Position numbers and translations under genes: made by a program. The notes below the pieces were generated by a model. The model ran no database searches. It was given only the letters and a program-made list of their open reading frames with translations, and was not told the DNA's origin. From the IMG/VR virus record IMGVR_UViG_2545824644_000012, positions 1 to 15,261 of that record: 15,261 nt of DNA; one strand, given 5' to 3'. Shown here piece by piece: positions 1,422-14,044 of the stretch (the first letter of the stretch is position 1; every line of letters begins with the position of its first letter). Source of the stretch: a virus (taxonomy: Duplodnaviria > Heunggongvirae > Uroviricota > Caudoviricetes).

Positions 1422-3893
1422 TTAAAAATCAGCCTGACTCGGGAGCAGTTTTTGCCAGATGGCTGAAACGTATTTTGCCTGGTAACGAGCATCGTGCAGC
1501 GCGTTATGGCGTTCACCTTCGAATGGAATAGTCGTTCTTGCGTCGAAATCCATCACCAGTCCCAGAGCAACCATCGTTCTTACATCGCGATCATTGGTGA
1601 AACGCCACGGGCAGGGGAGCCCCTGTCGTTCATATGAACGGCGTAAAATCACGTTGTCGAAAGTTGCACCGTTACCCCAGACCTGAACAAAAAATTCACC
1701 GGAGTTTTCGTCGATAAATTCCCGTAGTTGCAGCAGTGCATCATCCAACGGGATTTCATCGGTCAGAATGGCGGATTGTGCTTCGCGTGACTGTTTCAGC
1801 CACCACTTAATGGTGTCCCGATCGATGACCCCGCCTGCGGTTTCCAGATCGATAGTTTTGCTGAATTCTGGCCCCATCTCTCCGGTTGCCGGATCAAAAA
1901 ACTTACCGGCTATAGCGTTTATTGGCGCATCAGGATTTTTTCCCATTGTTTCAAGGTCAATCATCAGATGGTGCCACAACCTGCTGGTGGATGTGATTTC
2001 ATGATGACCGTTCACTTTAATTAAGGGATTTGCTGTCTCGCCAGTTTTATTATCGCTGGCGTGATACTGATCGCTGCCAGTGTTCTCCTTGTGCAGATGT
2101 TCAGTGCCTTCCATTTCCTCCGGAGCATTTTCCTGAGCTTCAGCCTGATTCTCTTCATCGAATGTTTCCTGGTAGGTTGCGTTCCCCATCACCGCACCAC
2201 AGTCAGGACAGTTGCCGCCACCGGTCTGACCGCATGCGGTGCAAACTTTTTCCAGTTCCTGTTGCACTGCTGGTTCTGGTTGTTGTTCTTCTGGCCCGTT
2301 TTGTTGCGTATCCGGGCTGTTTTGTTCCGCTTCTGGCTCATTTTGTTTCACGTTGGGCTGATTCAGGTCCTCAGCGTCGCGACTCTGGATCCCTTTCACC
2401 CATTTCGGATCATCCGGGTCGCTAATCCCTTCAACAAATTCACCACGTGATGCAGCAAGCAATTTATCGGCGTCAGGCTGGCTGATATTGGCTGCCTGCA
2501 TAATTTTGTTTACTTCGTCAGCGGTAACTTTTACCGGCTCTGGTTGTTCGGAATCTTCAGTGCTATCCACATTTTGCGGTAAGCCCGTGTATGTGCCATT
2601 TTTTCGGGCAAAATATTCTTCTTTTGAGATTTCGGTACCGCCGGCAGCCAGCGCCCTGTCCAGACCAGAAAGTTTGTTTGCCCTGCCGTATTTTTCCCCG
2701 CCCTTATCGGTAAAGACGAAATAAAATGGTCCTTCACGCTCTACAGATGGTTCAGCTTCCACCAGGATTTCATTTTTTTGAGTATCGGATTCTGCCGTCT
2801 CCACTGGAGCAGTTTGTGCTGCTGACTGCTGGAGAGCATTAGCAGAGCTCTGGTCTGTTTCTTCATGTTCAAACACGCCCTTTGTCGTCAGGTATTCGCT
2901 GATATATTTGTTCAGTGCAACGGGATCTTTGTGAATATCGATCGGACGTTCGCGAACAAGGCCAAAAATAGTCTGACGGTCATAGGCAAGTGCTTCGGGC
3001 TGTTTGCGCATTGATGCTGAGATACGCTTCCAGTCTTCGCGATCCTTGTCGATAACCTCATTTGTCGCCCAGCGATGGATGGTACCGTCAATGTTTCCTG
3101 CATCCACATCACCGGGCCAGAGGGCGCAGGCCAGTTCATTGTCGAGTGTTTTCCATGTCTGTTTGTATTCGCGGCGAATGGCAACAGTGACAGCCCCGGT
3201 TTTTTCAGCAGCGTTTTCAGTGTTCTGTTGGTTGACTCTGGCGCGGGCGAGATCAACAACAGACGTGTATTTTCCGGTTTCCTTGCGTTCACCTTCGCGA
3301 CGTTTTTTCCAGATGCGCATCTCTGCCTGAATTTCAGGCCATTTAGCGCCAGGCTCACATTTATTCTTAACCCACCCGATGGCATGCAGTTTAAGTTCAG
3401 GATACATGGCGTTAACTTCTGGCATTTTCATCAACGCTTCAACGATATGTCCGCCGAATGTTGCCATGTCTTCCTGTAGTAATTCCTGTGCGCTAATCAC
3501 CATATCAACGGTGATGTTTTCGCATGTGTCGAATTTAACCAGGACTGCGTTCTGTACTTCAGGGGACAGCTTGTCAAAATTGACGTTCATCGGATCGGAT
3601 TCGGGTTCGACCGGGACAAAGGACGCAGACTCCTCATCCCAGCGGTTTTCCTGCATATATTCGGTATCCCAGGAATCGAGGGCAGGGCGGGGTATGCCGG
3701 GTTTATCCTCGCAGACAATAAATTTATAAGCGCAGTCCTGAGCTGCCGGGAATTGCTCCAGAAATTGCCAGTGAAATTTTGCGCGTGCGCGACGCTCATC
3801 ACCGGCTTCAATGGCAGTGGCCACCGCAACAGCGCTATCTTCTTCTATGGCCTGCTCGTCAGGAATAGCAGCGCAAATAAAGATTTTATTCAT
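1422..3893 (-). CDS. Large RecE-like exonuclease (exodeoxyribonuclease VIII-like) with C-terminal DEDDh 3'-5' exonuclease domain
   Basis: 823-aa ORF. C-terminal ~180 aa carry DnaQ/RNase T-type motifs ([34 protein letters not shown]). Central acidic Q/E/P-rich low-complexity stretch with a CxxC-x8-CxxC zinc-ribbon ([16 protein letters not shown]). Sits where lambdoid phages carry exo/recE, upstream of xis-int. GAGG about 11 nt before the ATG. Confidence 0.7.
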
Positions 3894-3988: not shown

Positions 3989-4177
3989 TTATCCAGCCGG
4001 TGTTTCGTTATTCAGGTACAGCGATACTTTTTTTACCGGGAGGCATTCACCGGGGATTTTTTGTTCGTCCCTTACCTGAATGCAGGATGACTTACTGTCA
4101 TAAATTCCGGTAATCACATTCTGCGGCTCACCCGTTATAAGAAAAACGGTCATCACCAGTGCAAATGCTGAAGTCAT
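3989..4177 (-). CDS. ydfD: YdfD-like small lysis protein (Qin ydfD homologue)
   Basis: 62-aa ORF with hydrophobic N-terminus (MTSAFALVMTVFLITGEP) and EQKIPG.C.PV.KV pattern recalled from Qin YdfD; GGAG 7 nt upstream; ATG overlaps the dicB stop (ATGA). Confidence 0.6.
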   Translation of the reverse strand: MTSAFALVMTVFLITGEPQNVITGIYDSKSSCIQVRDEQKIPGECLPVKKVSLYLNNETPAG

Positions 4178-4362
4178 TGACGTTCTCCGAAAATACCAAG
4201 TTTAATAAGGGCAATTCGGGAAAGAATGGAATTATCATTGAGCAGATAAGGCTCATATTTCCGCATATTAATGGCATCCTCAGTAAACGCTTTATTACTG
4301 AGCAGAACACCAATATCAAAACAACCTTCAGACGTATTAACGTTTGGTAATAACGTTTCCAT
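4174..4362 (-). CDS. dicB: Cell-division inhibitor DicB homologue
   Basis: 62-aa ORF; N-terminus METLLPNVNTSEGCFDIGV..FTEDAIN.RK matches recalled K-12 DicB (MKTLLPNVNTSEGCFEIGV...FTEDAINKRK); GAGGA 7 nt upstream of the ATG; same length as DicB. Confidence 0.75.
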   Translation of the reverse strand: METLLPNVNTSEGCFDIGVLLSNKAFTEDAINMRKYEPYLLNDNSILSRIALIKLGIFGERQ

Positions 4363-5366: not shown

Positions 5367-5654
5367 TTAAAGATTAGCGGGGAATTGTCGACGGGCGTGA
5401 ACCACGTTTACAATTTCAATACCTGAAGTTGTCACCCGGTACAAAATTATGTAATTGGGGTGAGCCACAATCTCGCGCAAACCTGGCACTCTGTCGCTTG
5501 GCGGATATAAATACGGATGTTCGGATAACGGCAGGACGCAAGCTCTTAAGCGTTGCCATAAGCGTTCTGCCGCATCTATGTCGAAACGGGCAATATAACT
5601 AGTTATATCATCCAGATCGGTATCTGCGCTTTCAAGCCATAACACGGGTAACAT
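5367..5654 (-). CDS. parE2: ParE/RelE-family type II toxin (ParE2-like)
   Basis: 95-aa ORF starting directly after the antitoxin stop (TAA-ATG); RelE/ParE-like size and sequence; partner of a PaaA2-like antitoxin. Confidence 0.8.
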   Translation of the reverse strand: MLPVLWLESADTDLDDITSYIARFDIDAAERLWQRLRACVLPLSEHPYLYPPSDRVPGLREIVAHPNYIILYRVTTSGIEIVNVVHARRQFPANL

Positions 5655-5846
5655 TTACTGCTCTCTCCGTTCCTTGCGAATTTTGGCAAAGCGTTCTGCC
5701 ATTCTGCGCTCAACTTCATCATGTGGAATAGCAGGACGTGGATCAGCAAGGCTTGCGGCTACTTTTGCGCGTAACCATTCGTTATAACTGTTTTCTTGCT
5801 CAACGGTTTCAAATTCAGAAACCATTGGTGAAAGGGCTGTATTCAT
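5655..5846 (-). CDS. paaA2: PaaA2-like antitoxin (63 aa)
   Basis: Using the internal Met gives MNTALSPMVSEFETVEQENSYNEWLRAKVAASLADPRPAIPHDEVERRMAERFAKIRKERREQ, near-identical to the recalled E. coli O157 PaaA2. AGGAGG 6 nt upstream of this ATG; the longer track ORF (to 5909) would overlap the repressor gene. Confidence 0.85.
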   Translation of the reverse strand: MNTALSPMVSEFETVEQENSYNEWLRAKVAASLADPRPAIPHDEVERRMAERFAKIRKERREQ

Positions 5847-5875
5847 GACATACCTCCTCTTACAGGTGGTAGAGA

Positions 5876-6277
5876 TTACGCTCGGTGCCCCTTTTGGGCT
5901 GCGATCCACCGAGCAACAGTTTCTTCCATTGACTTTTTCTTATTTTTTATTTCCTGAAGCATTTTTTCTTGGTCTTCATCGGGAAATGCACTAAAAGCTT
6001 GGAGCAATTCACGTTGGCGAGGGCCAATTTTCATCGTGTCAGGAGTAAAAATTTGCTCTCCCTCTTCTGGAGGTAATAAAAACCAATGTAGTGGATGCCC
6101 TGTAACCTCGACCAACTTATCTAAGCTGGAGGCTTTAGGTGTGGCTTTTCCACTGACCCATTGCTGAACAGTTTGCTGTGTCACACCGACTCTACGAGCA
6201 AGTTCAGCTTGGCTCCATCCTGTTTCTTTGAGGAGCCTGCTAATTCTGTACATAGATACTTCTAGGGCCTTCATCAT
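5876..6277 (-). CDS. paaR2: HTH (XRE-family) repressor, DicA/PaaR2-like; probable prophage repressor
   Basis: 133-aa ORF with helix-turn-helix (SQAELARRVGVTQQTVQQW); divergent from a Cro-like gene across an operator-containing intergenic region; immediately upstream of the PaaA2/ParE2 pair on the same strand. No Shine-Dalgarno upstream, so possibly leaderless like lambda cI. Confidence 0.7.
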   Translation of the reverse strand: MMKALEVSMYRISRLLKETGWSQAELARRVGVTQQTVQQWVSGKATPKASSLDKLVEVTGHPLHWFLLPPEEGEQIFTPDTMKIGPRQRELLQAFSAFPDEDQEKMLQEIKNKKKSMEETVARWIAAQKGHRA

Positions 6278-6288
6278 TATTCGATTTT

Positions 6289-6347
6289 ACAGGTAAATAC
6301 TGTTAAAAGCACCACAATAAAAAACTGTTGATCATGAACAGTTTTTT
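6289..6347. promoter_or_regulatory. Operator region between divergent repressor and cro-like genes
   Basis: 6319-6347 aaaaaaCTGTTgatcatgAACAGtttttt has perfect 11-bp inverted arms around a 7-bp spacer; a second ACAG-N7-CTGT element lies at 6289-6303. Divergent promoters were not resolved confidently. Confidence 0.5.
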
Positions 6348-6385
6348 ATTGTAGCCTTTATCTATGAACTTCAGAGGAGGGCAAC

Positions 6386-6646
6386 ATGCTCAATAGCACC
6401 CGTGAAAAAATTAAGCAGAAATACACACAGGCTGAAATAGGACGCTATATGGGAGTAACCCAACAAACTGTTTGGCAATGGTTTAGCTTGGGTATTCCTC
6501 CCAAACAGGTAATCCCTTTATGCCAACTAATGCAGTGGGGGGTTACTCCTCACGAACTCCGACCTGATATTTATCCTAACCCAACAGACGGCTTGCCTGC
6601 TGAGTTTCAGACTAGCACACAGCCAGCGACGGGAGTTGATTCATGA
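6386..6646 (+). CDS. Cro-like HTH regulator (YdaS family)
   Basis: 86-aa ORF; GAGGAGGG Shine-Dalgarno; motif GVTQQTVWQW..GIPP...ELRPD typical of YdaS/Cro-like proteins; divergent from the repressor. Confidence 0.7.
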   Translation: MLNSTREKIKQKYTQAEIGRYMGVTQQTVWQWFSLGIPPKQVIPLCQLMQWGVTPHELRPDIYPNPTDGLPAEFQTSTQPATGVDS

Positions 6647-7068
6647 AAATCAAGCATGAGCACATCCGCATGGCGATGAATGCCTGGGCATATCCTGACG
6701 GTGAGAAAGTTCCCGCAGCTGAAATAGCCCGGACTTATTTCGAACTGGGGATGACGTTCCCGGAACTGTACGACGACACTCATCCTGAGGCCCTGGCTCG
6801 TAATACCCAGAAAATTTTCCGTTGGCTGGATAAAGACACCCATGATGCTGTTGAAAAAATTCAGGCTCTGTTACCGGCGATCGAAAAGGCGATGCCGCCT
6901 TTGCTGGTGGCCCGTATGCGCAGTCACAGTTCTGAGTACTACCGGGAGATTGTCGAACGGCGGGATCGGCTGGTGAAGGATGTCGACGATTTTGTTGCGT
7001 CAGCGGTCGTTTTGTATGACCAGATAAATCGCGGCGGCCCGGCAGGGAATGCTGTGGTGATGCACTAA
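6643..7068 (+). CDS. YdaT-family protein (CII-like regulator / putative toxin)
   Basis: 141-aa ORF beginning MKIKHEHI, as recalled for Rac YdaT; ATG overlaps the cro-like stop (ATGA), matching the ydaS-ydaT arrangement. Confidence 0.6.
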   Translation: MKIKHEHIRMAMNAWAYPDGEKVPAAEIARTYFELGMTFPELYDDTHPEALARNTQKIFRWLDKDTHDAVEKIQALLPAIEKAMPPLLVARMRSHSSEYYREIVERRDRLVKDVDDFVASAVVLYDQINRGGPAGNAVVMH

Positions 7069-7090
7069 AAGCACGGTGTTCGGGGGTTTT

Positions 7091-8059
7091 ATGAGCAGCA
7101 AGCTTCATGGTCTTGTCTGGGAAGGATGCGCCTTCACTGGCATGATCTTATCAAGGGTGGCAGTAATGGCCCGTCTTGCAGATTACAGCAATGACGAGGG
7201 GGTGTCATGGCCTGCTATGGAAACGATCCGGCGTCAGATCGGTGCCAGAAGTGAATCCACCGTGAAATCTGCGATTGCAGAACTGGCGAAAGAGGGCTGG
7301 CTGACGAAGGAAGAGCGTAAGATCGGTGGGCGTAACGTAAGCAATATCTATCGGCTTAATGTGGAAAAACTCGAAGCAGCGGCAGCGGCGGCGCGTGAGG
7401 CATATAAACCGAAAAGAAAAATTAGCCCGGCAAAAAATGACCCGTTAACAGTTGACCCGTCAAATATTGACCCCTCAACGGTTGACCCGTCAAATTCTGA
7501 GGGGTCAACCATTGATAAAAAACAGCCGATTAGGGGGGCGATGATTGACCCCGATCCGTCAGTATTAAAACCTGATCCGTCAGATAAAAGATCTTCTTGT
7601 CCGGACGTTTCACTTCCGGACGAAAAAAAATCATCTCCGGTTGAACGCTTTCTGGATAAACACCCTGATGCGCATACGTGGAATGTGCCGAAGCGACAGT
7701 GGGGAACCCGTGATGATATTACCTGTGCGCAGTGGATCTGGGGGCGTGTTGTTGCGCTGTATGAACACGCAGCCAGTGATGATGGTGAGGTTTCTCGCCC
7801 CAGAGAGCCAAACTGGACGACATGGGCTAACGATGTCCGGATGATGCGCATGCTGGATGGCCGCAGTCACCGGCAGATTTGTGAAATGTTCAGTCGGGTG
7901 CAGCGGGATCCGTTCTGGGTAAAAAATATCATGAGTCCGGCAAAACTGCGCGAAAAATGGGATGAACTGGTCATTCGTCTTGGGCGTGGGCCTGCGCAGA
8001 GTTGCGTGAATCATATTTCTGAACCGGACACTGAAATTCCACCGGGTTTCAGGGGGTAA
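7091..8059 (+). CDS. Replication initiator (lambda O-like / YdaU-like, N-terminal winged-helix)
   Basis: ORF upstream of the DnaC-like gene; N-terminal winged-helix region (VSWPAMETIRRQIGARSESTVKSAIAELAKEGWLT); iteron repeats lie inside the gene. Start placed at ATG 7091 (GGGGG 4 nt upstream); the track's GTG 7076 has no ribosome-binding site. Confidence 0.7.
   Translation: MSSKLHGLVWEGCAFTGMILSRVAVMARLADYSNDEGVSWPAMETIRRQIGARSESTVKSAIAELAKEGWLTKEERKIGGRNVSNIYRLNVEKLEAAAAAAREAYKPKRKISPAKNDPLTVDPSNIDPSTVDPSNSEGSTIDKKQPIRGAMIDPDPSVLKPDPSDKRSSCPDVSLPDEKKSSPVERFLDKHPDAHTWNVPKRQWGTRDDITCAQWIWGRVVALYEHAASDDGEVSRPREPNWTTWANDVRMMRMLDGRSHRQICEMFSRVQRDPFWVKNIMSPAKLREKWDELVIRLGRGPAQSCVNHISEPDTEIPPGFRG
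7438..7585. repeat. Iteron-like repeats inside the initiator gene; candidate origin of replication
   Basis: TTGACCC direct repeats at 7452, 7467 and 7482 (15-bp period), an inverted copy GGGTCAA at 7502-7508, another TTGACCC at 7545, an A-rich segment at 7511-7525, and two GATCCGTCAG repeats at 7553 and 7574. Analogous to ori-lambda inside gene O. Confidence 0.45.
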
Positions 8060-8065
8060 CTGACC

Positions 8066-8818
8066 ATGAAAGATATCGCGACAGTTGCAGTTGGTGTTCT
8101 GGAACGCATCCGCAGACTGGCTCCTGAGCACGTTCCCGTGCCGTACAGTACGACGGAGGAGTGGCGCGAGTGGCAACTTGCCGAAGGCCGGAAATACTGC
8201 GAGGAGATTAACCGCCGGAATCGTCAGTTGCGGGTGGAAAAAATCCTGAACCGTTCGGGCATCCAGCCGCTGCACCGCAAATGTTCGTTCGCGAATTACC
8301 AGGTGCGGAACGACGGGCAGAAACATGCGCTGAGCCAGGCTAAATCCATCGCTGAGGAAATGATGACCGGTTATACAAACTTCGTGTTCAGCGGGAATCC
8401 GGGAACCGGAAAAAATCATCTGGCGGCGGCTGTGGGTAATCGTCTGCTGAAGGCTGGTAAATCCGTGATAGTGGTCACCGTGGCGGATGTGATGAGCGCG
8501 TTACATGCCAGCTATGACGACGGGCTGTCAGGGGAAAAATTTTTGCGTGAACTGTGCGAAGTGGACCTCCTGGTTCTTGACGAAATTGGCATCCAGCGTG
8601 AGACGAAAAACGAGCAGGTGGTACTGCACCAGATTGTTGACCGCCGGACGGCATCACTGTGCAGTGTCGGGATGCTGACAAACCTGAATCATGCCGCAAT
8701 GAGCACGCTTCTTGGTGAGAGGATTATGGACAGGATGACCATGAACGGTGGTCGCTGGGTGAGTTTTAACTGGGAAAGCTGGCGTCCCAATGTCAGCCAT
8801 CTGAGAGTATTGAAGTAA
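8066..8818 (+). CDS. DnaC-like helicase loader (IstB-like AAA+ ATPase)
   Basis: 250-aa ORF; Walker [16 protein letters not shown] and Walker [10 protein letters not shown]; overall very similar to recalled E. coli DnaC ([13 protein letters not shown]..., MLTN..., LGERVMDRM). Confidence 0.9.
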
Positions 8819-8840
8819 TTTTTATCCGGAGGAAATTTTA

Positions 8841-9557
8841 ATGGAAACCGTTTTTGACGCACTGAAAGCACTGAAAAGAGCCTCTTCACAGGTAGTGGCG
8901 GCCCGCCTTGGAATCAGCCGTGAAGATGCGGTCAACGAACTGTGGAAACTGAAGCGCCGTGGTGAAGCGGATAACAAGGGGTCGATGTGGTGGCTGATTC
9001 AGGCTGGTGAAAGTGAACCTGTGTCACAGGTACCGAAAGTGACAGCGCAAATGCTGACTGAGGCGATTGAACAACATGGCCCACAAACGGCGGATGAACT
9101 GGCACTGATGTTCGGAATTACCTCCCGCCGGGCGAATTCATCGCTGGCGATGGCAATCAGCAAAGGGCGTCTGATTCGCGTGAATCAGGGCGGTAAATTT
9201 CGTTACTGCATACCGGGCGCTGATTTACCGGCAGAGCCGGAAGCTGCATCCGTAGCGGAAACGGATGGTAAAGCCTTTCCTCAGCCAGCAGGAGTTGCGT
9301 TACCGGTACAGGAAGCGGCGACACAGGAAGAAATTAAAACAGATACTGTGGCGGACATTGTGCAGTCGCTGCCATCGTTTACCGAAACGAAAGCAGATGA
9401 CCTGATTCTACCATCGCTGAATGTGGCTAACCGCGAGCTGCGCCGGGCGAAAAGTCATGTCCAGAAGTGGGAGCGTGTCTGTGCCGCGCTGCGGGAACTG
9501 AACAAACACAGGGATATTCTCCGGGATATTACCACCACCAGAGAGCAGCAACAGTGA
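8841..9557 (+). CDS. Hypothetical protein with two winged-helix-like segments and a C-terminal coiled-coil (possibly DUF1627-like)
   Basis: 238-aa ORF with GGAGG Shine-Dalgarno; two HTH-like segments ([17 protein letters not shown] and [26 protein letters not shown]); function unknown. Confidence 0.6.
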
Positions 9558-10399: not shown

Positions 10400-10745
10400 A
10401 GGAGATAAACCAACTAACAACTAAATACTGAAGATTTAAATCAGAAACGATTTTTATTAAATCCTTAACCGGAGGGATTCCTGCACCCTCAGAATATCAG
10501 GAGGCCGCCCGAAAGGGCGGTAAGAAATGAAACATTATTTAGAAAAAATTACCCACGAAAGAGCAGAACAACAGAGTTTCTGTTTTTCATTCTGTTTATA
10601 GTGTTGATGATACCGATATCCCCGCTATTACTGGTCTGGATAATTGGAAGGACATTTGAACCAGTTATTGAGCTATATACCGATGTGACATGGGAATCAT
10701 TCAGCGCACTGCACAATAAAATTAATCCGTATAAGGAAAACTGAT

Positions 10746-11593: not shown

Positions 11594-11749
11594 ATGAAGC
11601 AGCAAAAGGCGATGTTAATCGCCCTGATCGTCATCTGTTTAACCGTCATAGTGACGGCACTGGTAACGAGGAAAGACCTCTGCGAGGTGCGAATCCGAAC
11701 CGGTCAGACGGAGGTCGCTGTCTTCGTAGACTACGAATCTGAGAAGTAA
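11594..11749 (+). CDS. hok: Hok/Gef-family type I toxin (HokD/RelF-like)
   Basis: 51-aa ORF MKQQKAMLIALIVICLTVIVTALVTRKDLCEVRIRTGQTEVAVFVDYESEK with the Hok signature; AAGGAG upstream. The in-frame upstream ATG at 11537 (track ORF) would add a 19-aa extension. Confidence 0.85.
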   Translation: MKQQKAMLIALIVICLTVIVTALVTRKDLCEVRIRTGQTEVAVFVDYESEK

Positions 11750-13670: not shown

Positions 13671-14044
13671 ATGCTCATAGATTTGGTTTTACCTTACCCG
13701 CCGACGGTGAACACTTACTGGAGACGCCGTGGCAGCACATATTTTGTATCAAAAGCAGGGGAGCGTTATCGCCGGCAGTGGCGCTTATTGTTCGCCAGCA
13801 GCGACTGAAATTAAGCCTGTCCGGACGGCTGGCAATAAAAATTATTGCAGAGCCACCGGATAAGCGTCGTCGCGACCTGGACAATATTCTGAAAGCACCG
13901 CTGGATGCGCTGACGCATGCGGGAGTGCTTATTGATGACGAGCAGTTTGATGAAATCAATATTGTACGTGGTCAGCCAGTATCTGGTGGACGTCTGGGGG
14001 TGAAGATTTACCCCATAATGCTTGAAGGGCAGGTCAAAAAATGA
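13671..14044 (+). pseudogene. rusA: rusA Holliday-junction resolvase, apparently disrupted by a -1 frameshift
   Basis: From ATG 13671 (AAGAGG 6 nt upstream) the frame reads MLIDLVLPYPPTVNTYWRRRGSTYFVSKAGERYRR, matching the RusA N-terminus, then stops at 13806-13808. The RusA C-terminus (AVALIV...PDKRRRDLDN...) continues in the -1 frame to 14044. The shift maps to the G-run near 13774-13776. Confidence 0.65.

What the first reader, a model, noticed from the sequence alone, without database searches (positions are those of the whole stretch)
7438..7585. Iteron array embedded in the replication initiator gene: candidate prophage origin
Three TTGACCC repeats at an exact 15-bp period, an inverted copy, a further copy and an adjacent A-rich tract lie inside the initiator ORF, like ori-lambda within gene O. 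The same DNA encodes a repetitive peptide (DPLTVDPSNIDPSTVDPS), so DNA-level and protein-level constraints overlap.
Basis: seen in the sequence. Interest (0 to 1): 0.5.

Follow-up and report, generated by a model that had tools for sequence, protein, structure and literature searches.

The report
Prophage replication origin inside initiator gene
A short DNA motif repeated every 15 bases inside a prophage's replication-initiator gene is most likely the binding-site array of that prophage's replication origin, the arrangement long known from phage lambda, so it is a real but fairly ordinary feature.

Summary
All five TTGACCC heptamers of the 15-kb window lie in 7452-7551. The real unit is a 12-bp palindrome (TTGAC-CC-GTCAA) repeated at an exact 15-bp period from 7437 to 7508, with degenerate in-register copies at 7422 and 7512. 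It is the strongest tandem repeat in the window.

It lies in a 322-aa winged-helix initiator (7091-8059; Pfam HTH_36; PHROG "replication initiation O-like"). This sits upstream of a DnaC-like helicase loader in a Rac-like lambdoid prophage next to ompW in E. coli. The array falls in a predicted disordered linker between the DNA-binding and C-terminal domains.

Comparison supports a DNA-level function:
- Copy number changes in 15-bp steps.
- Silent sites are less variable, and amino acids more variable, than in the folded N-domain.
- Serine is almost always the rare TCA codon.
- Distant relatives keep the TGA-N4-TCA skeleton while the peptide changes. Some units are flipped, so DPP becomes EGL.
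- Relatives with the same C-domain but other N-domains carry other repeats at the same place.

No experiment exists for any member of this family, and the A/T-rich tract is weak. Verdict: a candidate lambda-style origin and a new member of a known kind, of modest interest.

The parts
7091..8059 (+). Replication initiator gene (322 aa). Winged-helix N-domain is aa 1-104, predicted disordered linker aa 110-180, helical C-domain aa 183-297, DnaT-like tail aa 306-322.
   Evidence: RefSeq CDS WP_062873984.1 in the 100% identical E. coli OkiPb01678 record. Pfam HTH_36. PHROG 391 'replication initiation O-like', E 3e-105. AlphaFold2 model. Foldseek matches to MarR/PadR/ArsR-type winged-helix proteins only, all weak (best E 0.006).
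7422..7433 (+). Degenerate in-register unit TTAGCCCGGCAA (3 mismatches to the 12-mer)
7437..7448 (+). Iteron unit 0, ATGACCCGTTAA. This is the unit missing in the 317-aa alleles.
7452..7463 (+). Iteron unit 1, TTGACCCGTCAA (5-bp arms, 2-bp centre)
7467..7478 (+). Iteron unit 2, TTGACCCCTCAA
7482..7493 (+). Iteron unit 3, TTGACCCGTCAA
7497..7508 (-). Iteron unit 4 in flipped orientation (CTGAGGGGTCAA on +, TTGACCCCTCAG on -). Most relatives have TTGATGGATCAA here, a palindrome kept by changes on both arms.
7512..7522 (+). In-register half unit TTGAT followed by an A6 tract
7545..7562 (+). TTGACCCC followed by the first conserved GATCCGTCAG (contains a Dam site)
   Evidence: The GATCC[GA]TCAG pair is present in 157 of 167 unique relatives.
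7563..7572 (+). Short A/T-rich spacer TATTAAAACC between the two conserved sites. The 30-bp window starting at 7563 ties with 7395-7396 as the most A+T-rich in the gene (70%).
7573..7593 (+). Second conserved site TGATCCGTCAG, then ATAAAAGATC (third GATC)
8066..8818 (+). DnaC/IstB-like helicase loader (YdaV family), the presumed partner of the initiator's C-terminal domain
   Evidence: Pfam IstB_IS21. NCBIfam PRK12377 at 480 bits, and DnaC equivalog at E 3e-90 (302 bits, below its 357-bit cutoff). PHROG 50.
8006..8056 (+). C-terminal tail VNHISEPDTEIPPGFRG, nearly identical to the C-terminus of E. coli DnaT

Best explanation
Region 7422-7593 is the replication origin of this lambdoid prophage, embedded in the linker-coding part of its own initiator gene.

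Shown:
- There is an array of five to seven 12-bp dyad-symmetric sites (consensus TTGAC-SS-GTCAA) at a 15-bp period.
- Downstream lies a short A-tract, a G-run, one more TTGACCCC, and a conserved pair of GATCCGTCAG sites flanking a small A/T-rich patch.
- The array lies between a winged-helix DNA-binding domain and a helical C-terminal domain.
- The constraint on it is at the DNA level.
- Repeat type travels with the N-terminal domain in mosaic relatives.

Inferred:
- After the prophage is derepressed, the early-right operon is transcribed and the initiator is made.
- The initiator's N-domain, probably as dimers, occupies the palindromes. The resulting nucleoprotein complex destabilises the neighbouring A/T-richer DNA, somewhere in 7560-7630.
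- The C-terminal domain and the DnaT-like tail recruit host DnaB through the phage DnaC-like loader encoded just downstream. This parallels lambda O, ori-lambda, P and DnaB.
For: 1. Non-random array. Four exact TGA-N4-TCA sites at 15-bp spacing occurred in 0 of 1000 simulations. It is the top tandem repeat in the window. The motif is found essentially nowhere else in the window.

2. Gene identity and context. The ORF matches HTH_36 and PHROG 391 'replication initiation O-like'. It follows Cro-like and CII-like genes and precedes a DnaC-like loader.

3. Position. The array (aa 116-145) lies in a region with pLDDT below 50 and no secondary structure, between two confident domains.

4. DNA-level constraint, among 40 unique same-type genes (Fisher tests).
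- Polymorphic sites by codon position (1st, 2nd, 3rd) are 6/3/40 in the N-domain, 3/8/5 in the array and 5/9/8 in the rest of the linker (Fisher p = 8e-6).
- Third-position polymorphism is lower in the linker: 13 of 61 codons against 40 of 105 (p = 0.03).

5. Codon choice.
- Ser is TCA in 6 of 7 linker codons against 4 of 22 elsewhere (p = 0.003).
- The same holds in two distant subgroups (p = 0.002 and 0.001).
- The codon before each D/E in the array always ends in T.

6. Copy number changes in whole units. Alleles of 322 and 317 aa differ by exactly one 15-bp unit. The Klebsiella-type subgroup has 2-7 units.

7. Deep conservation of the DNA skeleton with a changing peptide. The Klebsiella type has TCTGAC-NCN-TCAAAA, encoding SD[T/A/P]SK. 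The Pantoea type alternates TTGACCCCCCAA and TTGAGGGGTTAA, encoding DPP and EGL, which are near reverse complements of each other.

8. Module coupling.
- L039-group genes share N-domain and array with the window (96% aa) but have a different C-domain (76%).
- L004 shares that C-domain (94%) but has another N-domain (27%) and another repeat, 5 x 23 bp of CATCGGGTCAAAATG.
- L008 has a third N-domain and 22-bp CCGCAGAATCGCGGAAC repeats.
- Rac YdaU has four AAGCAGATGTTCAA copies.

9. Functional phages carry this initiator family: SfII, SfIV, phiNP, YeP1-3 and Klebsiella phages.

10. Established knowledge. The origins of lambda, P22 and L are iteron arrays in the middle of gene O or gene 18, and extra iterons add residues to the protein (PMC7466680, PMC8022706).
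Against: - No member of this initiator family has a mapped origin in the literature I could search.
- There is no marked A/T-rich unwinding element. The gene peaks at 70% A+T over 30 bp, and the window holds far richer stretches elsewhere, for example 82% at about 10422.
- A 15-bp period (about 1.4 helical turns) differs from the 22-24 bp of lambda and of the L004 and L008 relatives, so the geometry of any complex is unknown.
- Shared codons among units could partly reflect recent duplication or concerted evolution rather than selection.
- Many prophage copies carry core-breaking substitutions (GAC to AAC, GCC or GGC), so some copies may be decaying.
- This prophage has a frameshifted Cro-like gene and a frameshifted rusA according to RefSeq, so it may be defective.
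- The polymorphism counts come from related sequences and are not independent events.
Confidence: 0.75

Rival explanations
1. The repeat is only a by-product of a low-complexity, slippage-prone disordered linker (pentapeptide x-D-P-S-x). The DNA periodicity has no function of its own, and the origin lies elsewhere.
For: The linker is predicted disordered. Copy number varies in whole units, as slippage would give. Amino-acid constraint is relaxed. There is no strong A/T-rich element.
Against: Slippage does not explain several things:
- the internal dyad symmetry of each unit;
- the flipped units (CTGAGGGGTCAA; DPP/EGL alternation in the Pantoea type);
- the palindrome kept by changes on both arms (TTGATGGATCAA);
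- the reduced silent-site variation;
- retention of TGA-N4-TCA across subgroups whose folded domains are only 50-60% identical.

It also does not explain why unrelated N-domains carry unrelated repeats at the same spot.
Confidence: 0.1
2. The sites are bound by the initiator or another protein, but for a purpose other than initiation. Examples are autoregulation or a roadblock on the early-right transcript, copy-number control by handcuffing, or exclusion of related phages. The true start site would then be outside 7422-7593.
For: Binding-site arrays can serve control functions in iteron plasmids (general knowledge; review PMC4980987 listed, not read). The unwinding element is weak here.
Against: No other repeat array or second cluster of the motif exists in the 15-kb window that could serve as the origin proper. 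The placement matches lambda, P22 and L, where such arrays are (lambda) or are taken to be (P22, L) the origin.
Confidence: 0.1
3. The TTGACC repeats are a cluster of sigma-70 -35 hexamers (consensus TTGACA), that is, internal promoters.
For: TTGACC matches 5 of 6 positions of the -35 consensus (read directly from the sequence).
Against: The promoter scan of 5600-9000 found no site in the array with a -35 hexamer, a 16-18 nt spacer and a -10 hexamer, on either strand. The conserved feature across subgroups is TGA-N4-TCA, not TTGACA. The Klebsiella type has CTGAC.
Confidence: 0.02

Closest known systems
ori-lambda within gene O of phage lambda, and its 6-iteron variants in Stx phages
   Same: - An initiator-binding repeat array sits in the middle of the initiator gene, in the segment between the DNA-binding N-domain and the C-domain that engages the helicase-loading partner.
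- Each repeat is an inverted repeat.
- Copy number differs between relatives and adds or removes residues in the protein.
- The gene lies in the early-right operon after cro and cII analogues (PMC7466680).
   Different: - The protein is not lambda O by sequence. It has no Pfam Phage_rep_O hit; it matches HTH_36.
- Units are 12 bp at a 15-bp period, rather than lambda's 19-bp iterons.
- There is no long A/T-rich tract.
- The partner is a DnaC-type AAA+ loader, not lambda P.
- The initiator ends in a DnaT-like tail.
Repeats in gene 18 of Salmonella phages P22 and L
   Same: Distinct short repeats inside the initiator gene are interpreted as the origin. Phage L has six imprecise 11-bp repeats, a size comparable with the 12-bp units here (PMC8022706).
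   Different: The initiator sequence and repeat sequence differ. In P22 and L the partner (gp12) is a DnaB-type helicase rather than a DnaC-type loader.
Rac prophage replication module ydaU-ydaV (oriJ) of E. coli K-12
   Same: The operon layout is the same: ydaS-ydaT-initiator-DnaC-like loader-DUF1627. The C-terminal tail IPPGFRG is the same. There are repeats in the linker of the initiator, four AAGCAGATGTTCAA copies.
   Different: Rac YdaU has a DUF1376 N-domain and only 21% overall identity. Its repeats are unrelated and spaced 33, 33 and 12 bp. The position of oriJ is not annotated in RefSeq, and I could not find it in the papers searched.
Initiators of Shigella phages SfII and SfIV, Citrobacter phage phiNP, Yersinia YeP1-3 and Klebsiella prophage-derived phages
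   Same: They belong to the same HTH_36 initiator family, at 43-55% identity over the N-domain and linker or the whole protein. The Klebsiella/Salmonella-type relatives whose DNA I read carry the same kind of 15-bp-period TGA-N4-TCA array.
   Different: They form a different subgroup. The unit is TCTGAC-NCN-TCAAAA and the copy number is 2-7. I did not read the DNA of the named phages themselves, and I found no description of an origin in them.

Membership tests
Lambdoid 'origin inside the initiator gene' (architecture class) | The gene encodes the phage replication initiator and sits in the early-right operon next to a helicase-loading or helicase gene | tested here: met
   HTH_36; PHROG 391 'replication initiation O-like' at E 3e-105; DnaC-like loader immediately downstream; cI/cro/cII analogues upstream
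Lambdoid 'origin inside the initiator gene' (architecture class) | An array of at least four similar repeats lies in the inter-domain part of the gene, each with internal dyad symmetry | tested here: met
   Units at 7437-7508 are 12-bp palindromes at a 15-bp period. They lie in a linker with pLDDT below 50.
Lambdoid 'origin inside the initiator gene' (architecture class) | Repeat sequence co-varies with the initiator's DNA-binding domain, not with its C-terminal domain | tested here: met
   L039 group, L004, L008 and Rac YdaU
Lambdoid 'origin inside the initiator gene' (architecture class) | An adjacent A/T-rich unwinding region | tested here: inconclusive
   Only short A/T patches are present: A6 at 7517-7522, and 70% A+T over 30 bp at 7563. 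This is not exceptional for the window.
Lambdoid 'origin inside the initiator gene' (architecture class) | The initiator binds the repeats, and the fragment supports initiator-dependent replication | not testable with these tools
   Needs EMSA or footprinting and a plasmid replication assay
Lambda O protein family (Pfam Phage_rep_O) | Sequence match to the lambda O N-terminal domain model | tested here: not met
   The Pfam scan at E <= 0.01 gave only HTH_36 and a sub-threshold DnaD_N hit. The relatives gave the same result.
HTH_36 / PHROG 391 initiator family | Profile match above the curated cut-off over the winged-helix domain, and a full-length PHROG match | tested here: met
   HTH_36 at 27.5 bits against a cut-off of 25. 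PHROG 391 covers residues 1-322 at 353 bits.
Iteron-type plasmid or P1-type origins controlled by Dam methylation | A cluster of GATC sites in or next to the unwinding region beyond chance | tested here: inconclusive
   Three GATC sites in 41 bp is not significant by count (444 of 1000 simulations). However, two of them lie in a GATCC[GA]TCAG pair conserved in 157 of 167 relatives.

The most novel reading that the evidence does not exclude
This origin type may assemble differently from the lambda O-some. Palindromic half-sites alternate every 7 and 8 bp, so sites are packed at about 1.4 turns per unit, and initiator dimers would sit on alternating faces as a continuous filament rather than a wrapped particle. 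Firing may also be gated by Dam methylation and SeqA, through the two deeply conserved GATCCGTCAG sites that bracket the only A/T-rich patch. In addition, the DnaT-like C-terminal tail, shared by several unrelated initiators upstream of DnaC-like loaders, may mark a common 'DnaT-mimic' route by which prophages hand DnaB-DnaC to their origins.
Probability: 0.15. Interest if true: 0.55.

Novelty: new member of a known kind. Interest (0 to 1): 0.3.

Why it matters
This gives a concrete, testable origin for a very common family of enterobacterial prophage replication modules. A region at least 80% covering this module was found in 1204 of 5426 complete E. coli genomes. Relatives occur in Salmonella, Klebsiella, Citrobacter, Pantoea, Erwinia, Serratia, Morganella, Edwardsiella and Yersinia phages.

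It also offers a clean example of DNA-level selection shaping a protein sequence. The peptide DPS/EGS/DPP/EGL is largely a read-out of binding sites. This is useful for annotation, because such 'pentapeptide repeats' should not be read as protein motifs. It may also help in designing prophage-derived replicons.

It does not change the understanding of how lambdoid origins are organised.

Tried and rejected
- Promoter reading. The sigma-70 scan found no promoter-like site in the array.
- GATC cluster as a statistical signal. Not significant by count. I kept it only because of its conservation.
- A strong A/T-rich unwinding element. Not found.
- Literature on oriJ and ydaU. Two papers mention oriJ without coordinates. 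A search for ydaU + ydaV + replication found nothing. The K-12 RefSeq record lists no origin feature among the annotations in the Rac replication region.
- Literature on this motif. 'TTGACCC' + 'iteron' gave four papers whose titles concern other systems; I did not read them. SfIV + iteron gave nothing specific.
- Solved structures by sequence. Only the short DnaT-tail match appeared.
- Foldseek against the PDB. Only generic winged-helix regulators, all with weak E-values of 0.006 or worse.
- GTDB genome scan. Only 5 loci, but these were useful as the 'other N-domain' cases.
- Single-strand DNA folding of 7430-7600. The z-score is -3.0. This is expected from tandem palindromes and adds nothing on its own.
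- Position-wise information content of the units. It is partly circular, because the units were picked with a TGA-N4-T[CT]A pattern. I therefore relied on the codon-choice and polymorphism tests instead.

Full report
**Where the window comes from**

The region 6300-8900 is 100% identical to the chromosome of E. coli strain OkiPb01678. There it lies in a prophage integrated beside ompW. The gene order is:
- integrase, excisionase and an 823-aa exonuclease;
- dicB and relBE;
- a cI-like repressor (5876-6277, minus strand);
- a YdaS-like Cro analogue (6386-6646, marked frameshifted in RefSeq) and a YdaT-like CII analogue (6643-7068);
- the ORF in question (RefSeq CDS 7091-8059);
- a DnaC/IstB-like ATPase (8066-8818) and a DUF1627 protein;
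- then nin-region-like genes, RusA (frameshifted) and an antiterminator.

This is the layout of a Rac-like lambdoid prophage. The same order, ydaS-ydaT-ydaU-ydaV-ydaW, is found in Rac of K-12.

**Check of the observation**

TTGACCC occurs five times in the 15,261 bases. All five lie within 7452-7551: three at exact 15-bp spacing (7452, 7467, 7482), one on the minus strand (7502-7508) and one at 7545. The total count is not unusual for the window; the clustering and the period are.

Reading the sequence in 15-base rows shows a longer unit. It is a 12-bp palindrome:
- TTGACCCGTCAA at 7452 and 7482;
- TTGACCCCTCAA at 7467;
- ATGACCCGTTAA at 7437;
- CTGAGGGGTCAA at 7497, which is the same site in the opposite orientation.

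Weaker in-register copies are at 7422 and 7512. Tandem Repeats Finder ranks this array first in the whole window. Four TGA-N4-TCA sites in 100 bp never arose in 1000 first-order Markov simulations.

Downstream come an A6 tract (7517-7522), a G6 run, a further TTGACCCC (7545), and two identical GATCCGTCAG decamers 21 bp apart (7553 and 7574). The decamers flank TATTAAAACC and are followed by ATAAAAGATC.

The A/T-rich character is weak. The maximum is 70% over 30 bp, and the window holds much richer stretches elsewhere. The three GATC sites are not a significant cluster by count.

**What the gene is**

The product matches Pfam HTH_36 (aa 30-76) and, over its full length, PHROG 391 'replication initiation O-like' (E 3e-105). 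The next gene is a DnaC-type helicase loader.

An AlphaFold2 model built on 23 homologues gives three parts:
- a confident winged-helix N-domain (aa 1-104);
- no structure and pLDDT below 50 for aa 110-180;
- a helical C-domain (aa 183-297).

The N-domain resembles MarR/PadR/ArsR-type dimeric winged-helix proteins, but only generically and with weak E-values. The array (aa 116-145) and the two GATCCGTCAG sites (aa 155-165) therefore lie in a predicted disordered inter-domain linker.

The last 17 residues, VNHISEPDTEIPPGFRG, are nearly identical to the C-terminus of E. coli DnaT, VNTVSEPDSQIPPGFRG. The same tail ends Rac YdaU and other initiators encoded upstream of DnaC-like loaders.

**Is the constraint on DNA or on protein?**

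I collected 80 loci with the same initiator type from IMG/VR, and about 240 more loci from three further scans with the Klebsiella-, Salmonella- and Pantoea-type proteins as queries. Four results bear on the question.

First, polymorphism among 40 unique window-type genes (Fisher tests):

| Segment | Polymorphic sites at codon position 1 / 2 / 3 | Synonymous : non-synonymous variants |
|---|---|---|
| N-domain | 6 / 3 / 40 | 44 : 9 |
| Array | 3 / 8 / 5 | 5 : 12 |
| Rest of the linker | 5 / 9 / 8 | 4 : 18 |

The shift between N-domain and linker has Fisher p = 8e-6. Third positions are less often polymorphic in the linker: 13 of 61 codons against 40 of 105 (p = 0.03).

Second, codon choice. 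Serine is TCA in 6 of 7 linker codons but in 4 of 22 elsewhere (p = 0.003). The same bias is seen in the two other subgroups (p = 0.002 and 0.001). The codon before each Asp or Glu of the array always ends in T.

Third, alleles differ by whole units. Over 81 copies (80 IMG/VR loci plus the window), 20 genes encode 322 aa and 11 encode 317 aa. The difference is exactly the unit at 7437-7451. The Klebsiella-type subgroup has 2-7 units.

Fourth, across subgroups whose N-domains are only 50-60% identical, the DNA skeleton is retained while the peptide changes:
- The Klebsiella type has TCTGAC-NCN-TCAAAA, encoding SD[T/A/P]SK.
- The Pantoea type alternates TTGACCCCCCAA (DPP) with TTGAGGGGTTAA (EGL). 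These are near reverse complements.
- Most window-type relatives have TTGATGGATCAA at unit 4, a palindrome maintained by changes on both arms.

None of this is expected of a protein repeat. All of it is expected of a dyad-symmetric protein-binding site.

Three caveats apply. The sequences are related, so the counts are not independent events. Units within a gene may share codons by recent duplication. The information-content profile is partly circular, so I did not rely on it.

**Coupling to the DNA-binding domain**

- The L039 group shares the N-domain and array with the window (96% aa) but has a different C-domain (76%). The mosaic joint lies right after the linker.
- L004-L007 carry that same C-domain (94% to L039). 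They have another N-domain (27%) and, at the same position, five 23-bp repeats of CATCGGGTCAAAATG..CGATG followed by A-rich ACAGAGAATAC repeats.
- L008 has a third N-domain with 22-bp CCGCAGAATCGCGGAAC repeats.
- Rac YdaU (DUF1376 N-domain) has four AAGCAGATGTTCAA copies in its linker.

Repeat type therefore follows the N-terminal domain, and the C-terminal domain is exchanged independently. This is the modular pattern described for lambdoid O proteins and their origins (established knowledge; PMC7466680 and PMC8022706).

**Conserved downstream element**

The pair GATCC[G/A]TCAG is present in 157 of 167 unique genes of all three subgroups. Its spacing is 21, 24 or 18 bp, and it always brackets a short A/T-rich patch. 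Each site also fits the iteron core (TGATCCGTCA). This is the best candidate for the initiator-proximal edge of the unwinding region, and it carries Dam sites. Whether methylation matters is unknown.

**Mechanism proposed**

Everything beyond the anatomy is inferred. After derepression, transcription from the early-right promoter produces the initiator. Its winged-helix domain binds the palindromes. The resulting complex, helped by supercoiling and transcription, opens the A/T-richer DNA to the right, somewhere in 7560-7630. The C-domain and the DnaT-like tail then bring in host DnaB through the phage DnaC-like loader. I put the confidence that this region is the origin at about 0.75.

**Rivals**

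- A functionless slippage-prone linker (0.10). It is contradicted by the dyad symmetry, the flipped units, the depression of silent-site variation and the deep conservation.
- Initiator-binding sites with a purely regulatory role (0.10). This is not excluded. However, the window holds no other array that could be the origin.
- A cluster of -35 hexamers (0.02). No -10 partner exists, and the TTGAC element is not conserved as TTGACA-like in other subgroups.

**Comparison with what is known**

This works like ori-lambda in gene O and like the repeats in gene 18 of P22 and L. The protein is not a member of the lambda O family: it has no Phage_rep_O match and belongs to HTH_36 / PHROG 391.

Isolated phages with this initiator family include SfII, SfIV, phiNP, YeP1-3, phiP27 and several Klebsiella phages, at 43-55% identity. 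I found no paper describing their origin or this motif. The library searched lacks most subscription-journal papers, including the classical lambdoid-origin literature.

The differences from lambda are the 12-bp unit, the 15-bp period, the lack of a long A/T tract, a DnaC-type partner and the DnaT-like tail.

**Verdict**

It is a new member of a known kind. It is useful for annotating a very widespread prophage module, which is present in at least 1204 of 5426 complete E. coli genomes, and it is a tidy example of binding sites dictating a peptide. It is not surprising to a specialist. Interest 0.3.

Noticed in passing
window 8006-8056 (aa 306-322 of the initiator): The C-terminal tail VNHISEPDTEIPPGFRG is nearly identical to the extreme C-terminus of E. 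coli DnaT (PDB 2ru8, 6aep, 9zbt; E 0.002-0.006 with the 69-aa query). Rac YdaU, the phage 666R9 'O' protein and the L004-type initiators share it. All of these are encoded upstream of DnaC-like loaders, which echoes the host dnaT-dnaC gene pair. Some relatives (Salmonella, Pantoea, Edwardsiella) end instead in ...EWNTPEGWRDVL.
   Followed up: partly
L002:4472-4563 (NC_000913.3 about 1421471-1421562, inside ydaU of Rac): There are four copies of AAGCAGATGTTCAA, spaced 33, 33 and 12 bp, in the linker-coding part of Rac ydaU. This is a candidate for the iterons of oriJ. No origin feature appears among the RefSeq annotations of the region.
   Followed up: partly
L004:3213-3328 and 3333-3370; L008:3266-3376: Relatives with the same C-domain but other N-domains carry other arrays at the same place. 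L004 has 5 x 23 bp of CATCGGGTCAAAATG..CGATG followed by A-rich ACAGAGAATAC repeats. L008 has 22-bp CCGCAGAATCGCGGAAC repeats followed by three GATC sites. The L004 unit contains GGGTCAA, the reverse complement of TTGACCC. Its N-domain shares the stretch SEST[VL]K with the window protein, so the half-site may be shared.
   Followed up: partly
window 7553-7593: Two identical GATCCGTCAG decamers (Dam sites) lie 21 bp apart and a third GATC lies at 7590. The cluster is not significant by count in this window. The decamer pair is conserved in 157 of 167 relatives across three subgroups, at spacings of 18, 21 or 24 bp.
   Followed up: yes
window 6386-6659 and about 13671-14044: RefSeq marks the YdaS-like (Cro analogue) gene and the RusA gene of this prophage as frameshifted, so the prophage may be defective even though the initiator and loader ORFs are intact.
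   Followed up: no
window 1422-3893 (minus strand): An 823-aa protein sits at the position of RecE. It has only a C-terminal Rv2179c-like 3'-5' exoribonuclease domain (Pfam E 9e-62). The first 640 residues have no Pfam match.
   Followed up: no
window 5367-5909, 4174-4362 and about 11594-11749: Accessory genes in the prophage: a relBE toxin-antitoxin pair next to the repressor, dicB, and a Hok/Gef family gene further right (RefSeq annotation).
   Followed up: no
window 10421-10465: This intergenic patch has the highest A+T content of the window (about 82% over 40 bp). It lies downstream of the replication genes and contains no repeats.
   Followed up: no
L005 and L007 (GTDB records titled Bacillota bacterium MAG and Veillonella parvula MAG): Contigs binned into Firmicutes metagenome-assembled genomes carry an Escherichia-type prophage initiator close to that of E. 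albertii and E. ruysiae. They are probably mis-binned enterobacterial contigs.
   Followed up: no
P0047 (protein): A variant has the window-type N-domain, array and IPPGFRG tail but an unrelated middle C-domain. This is a further mosaic junction just after the linker.
   Followed up: no
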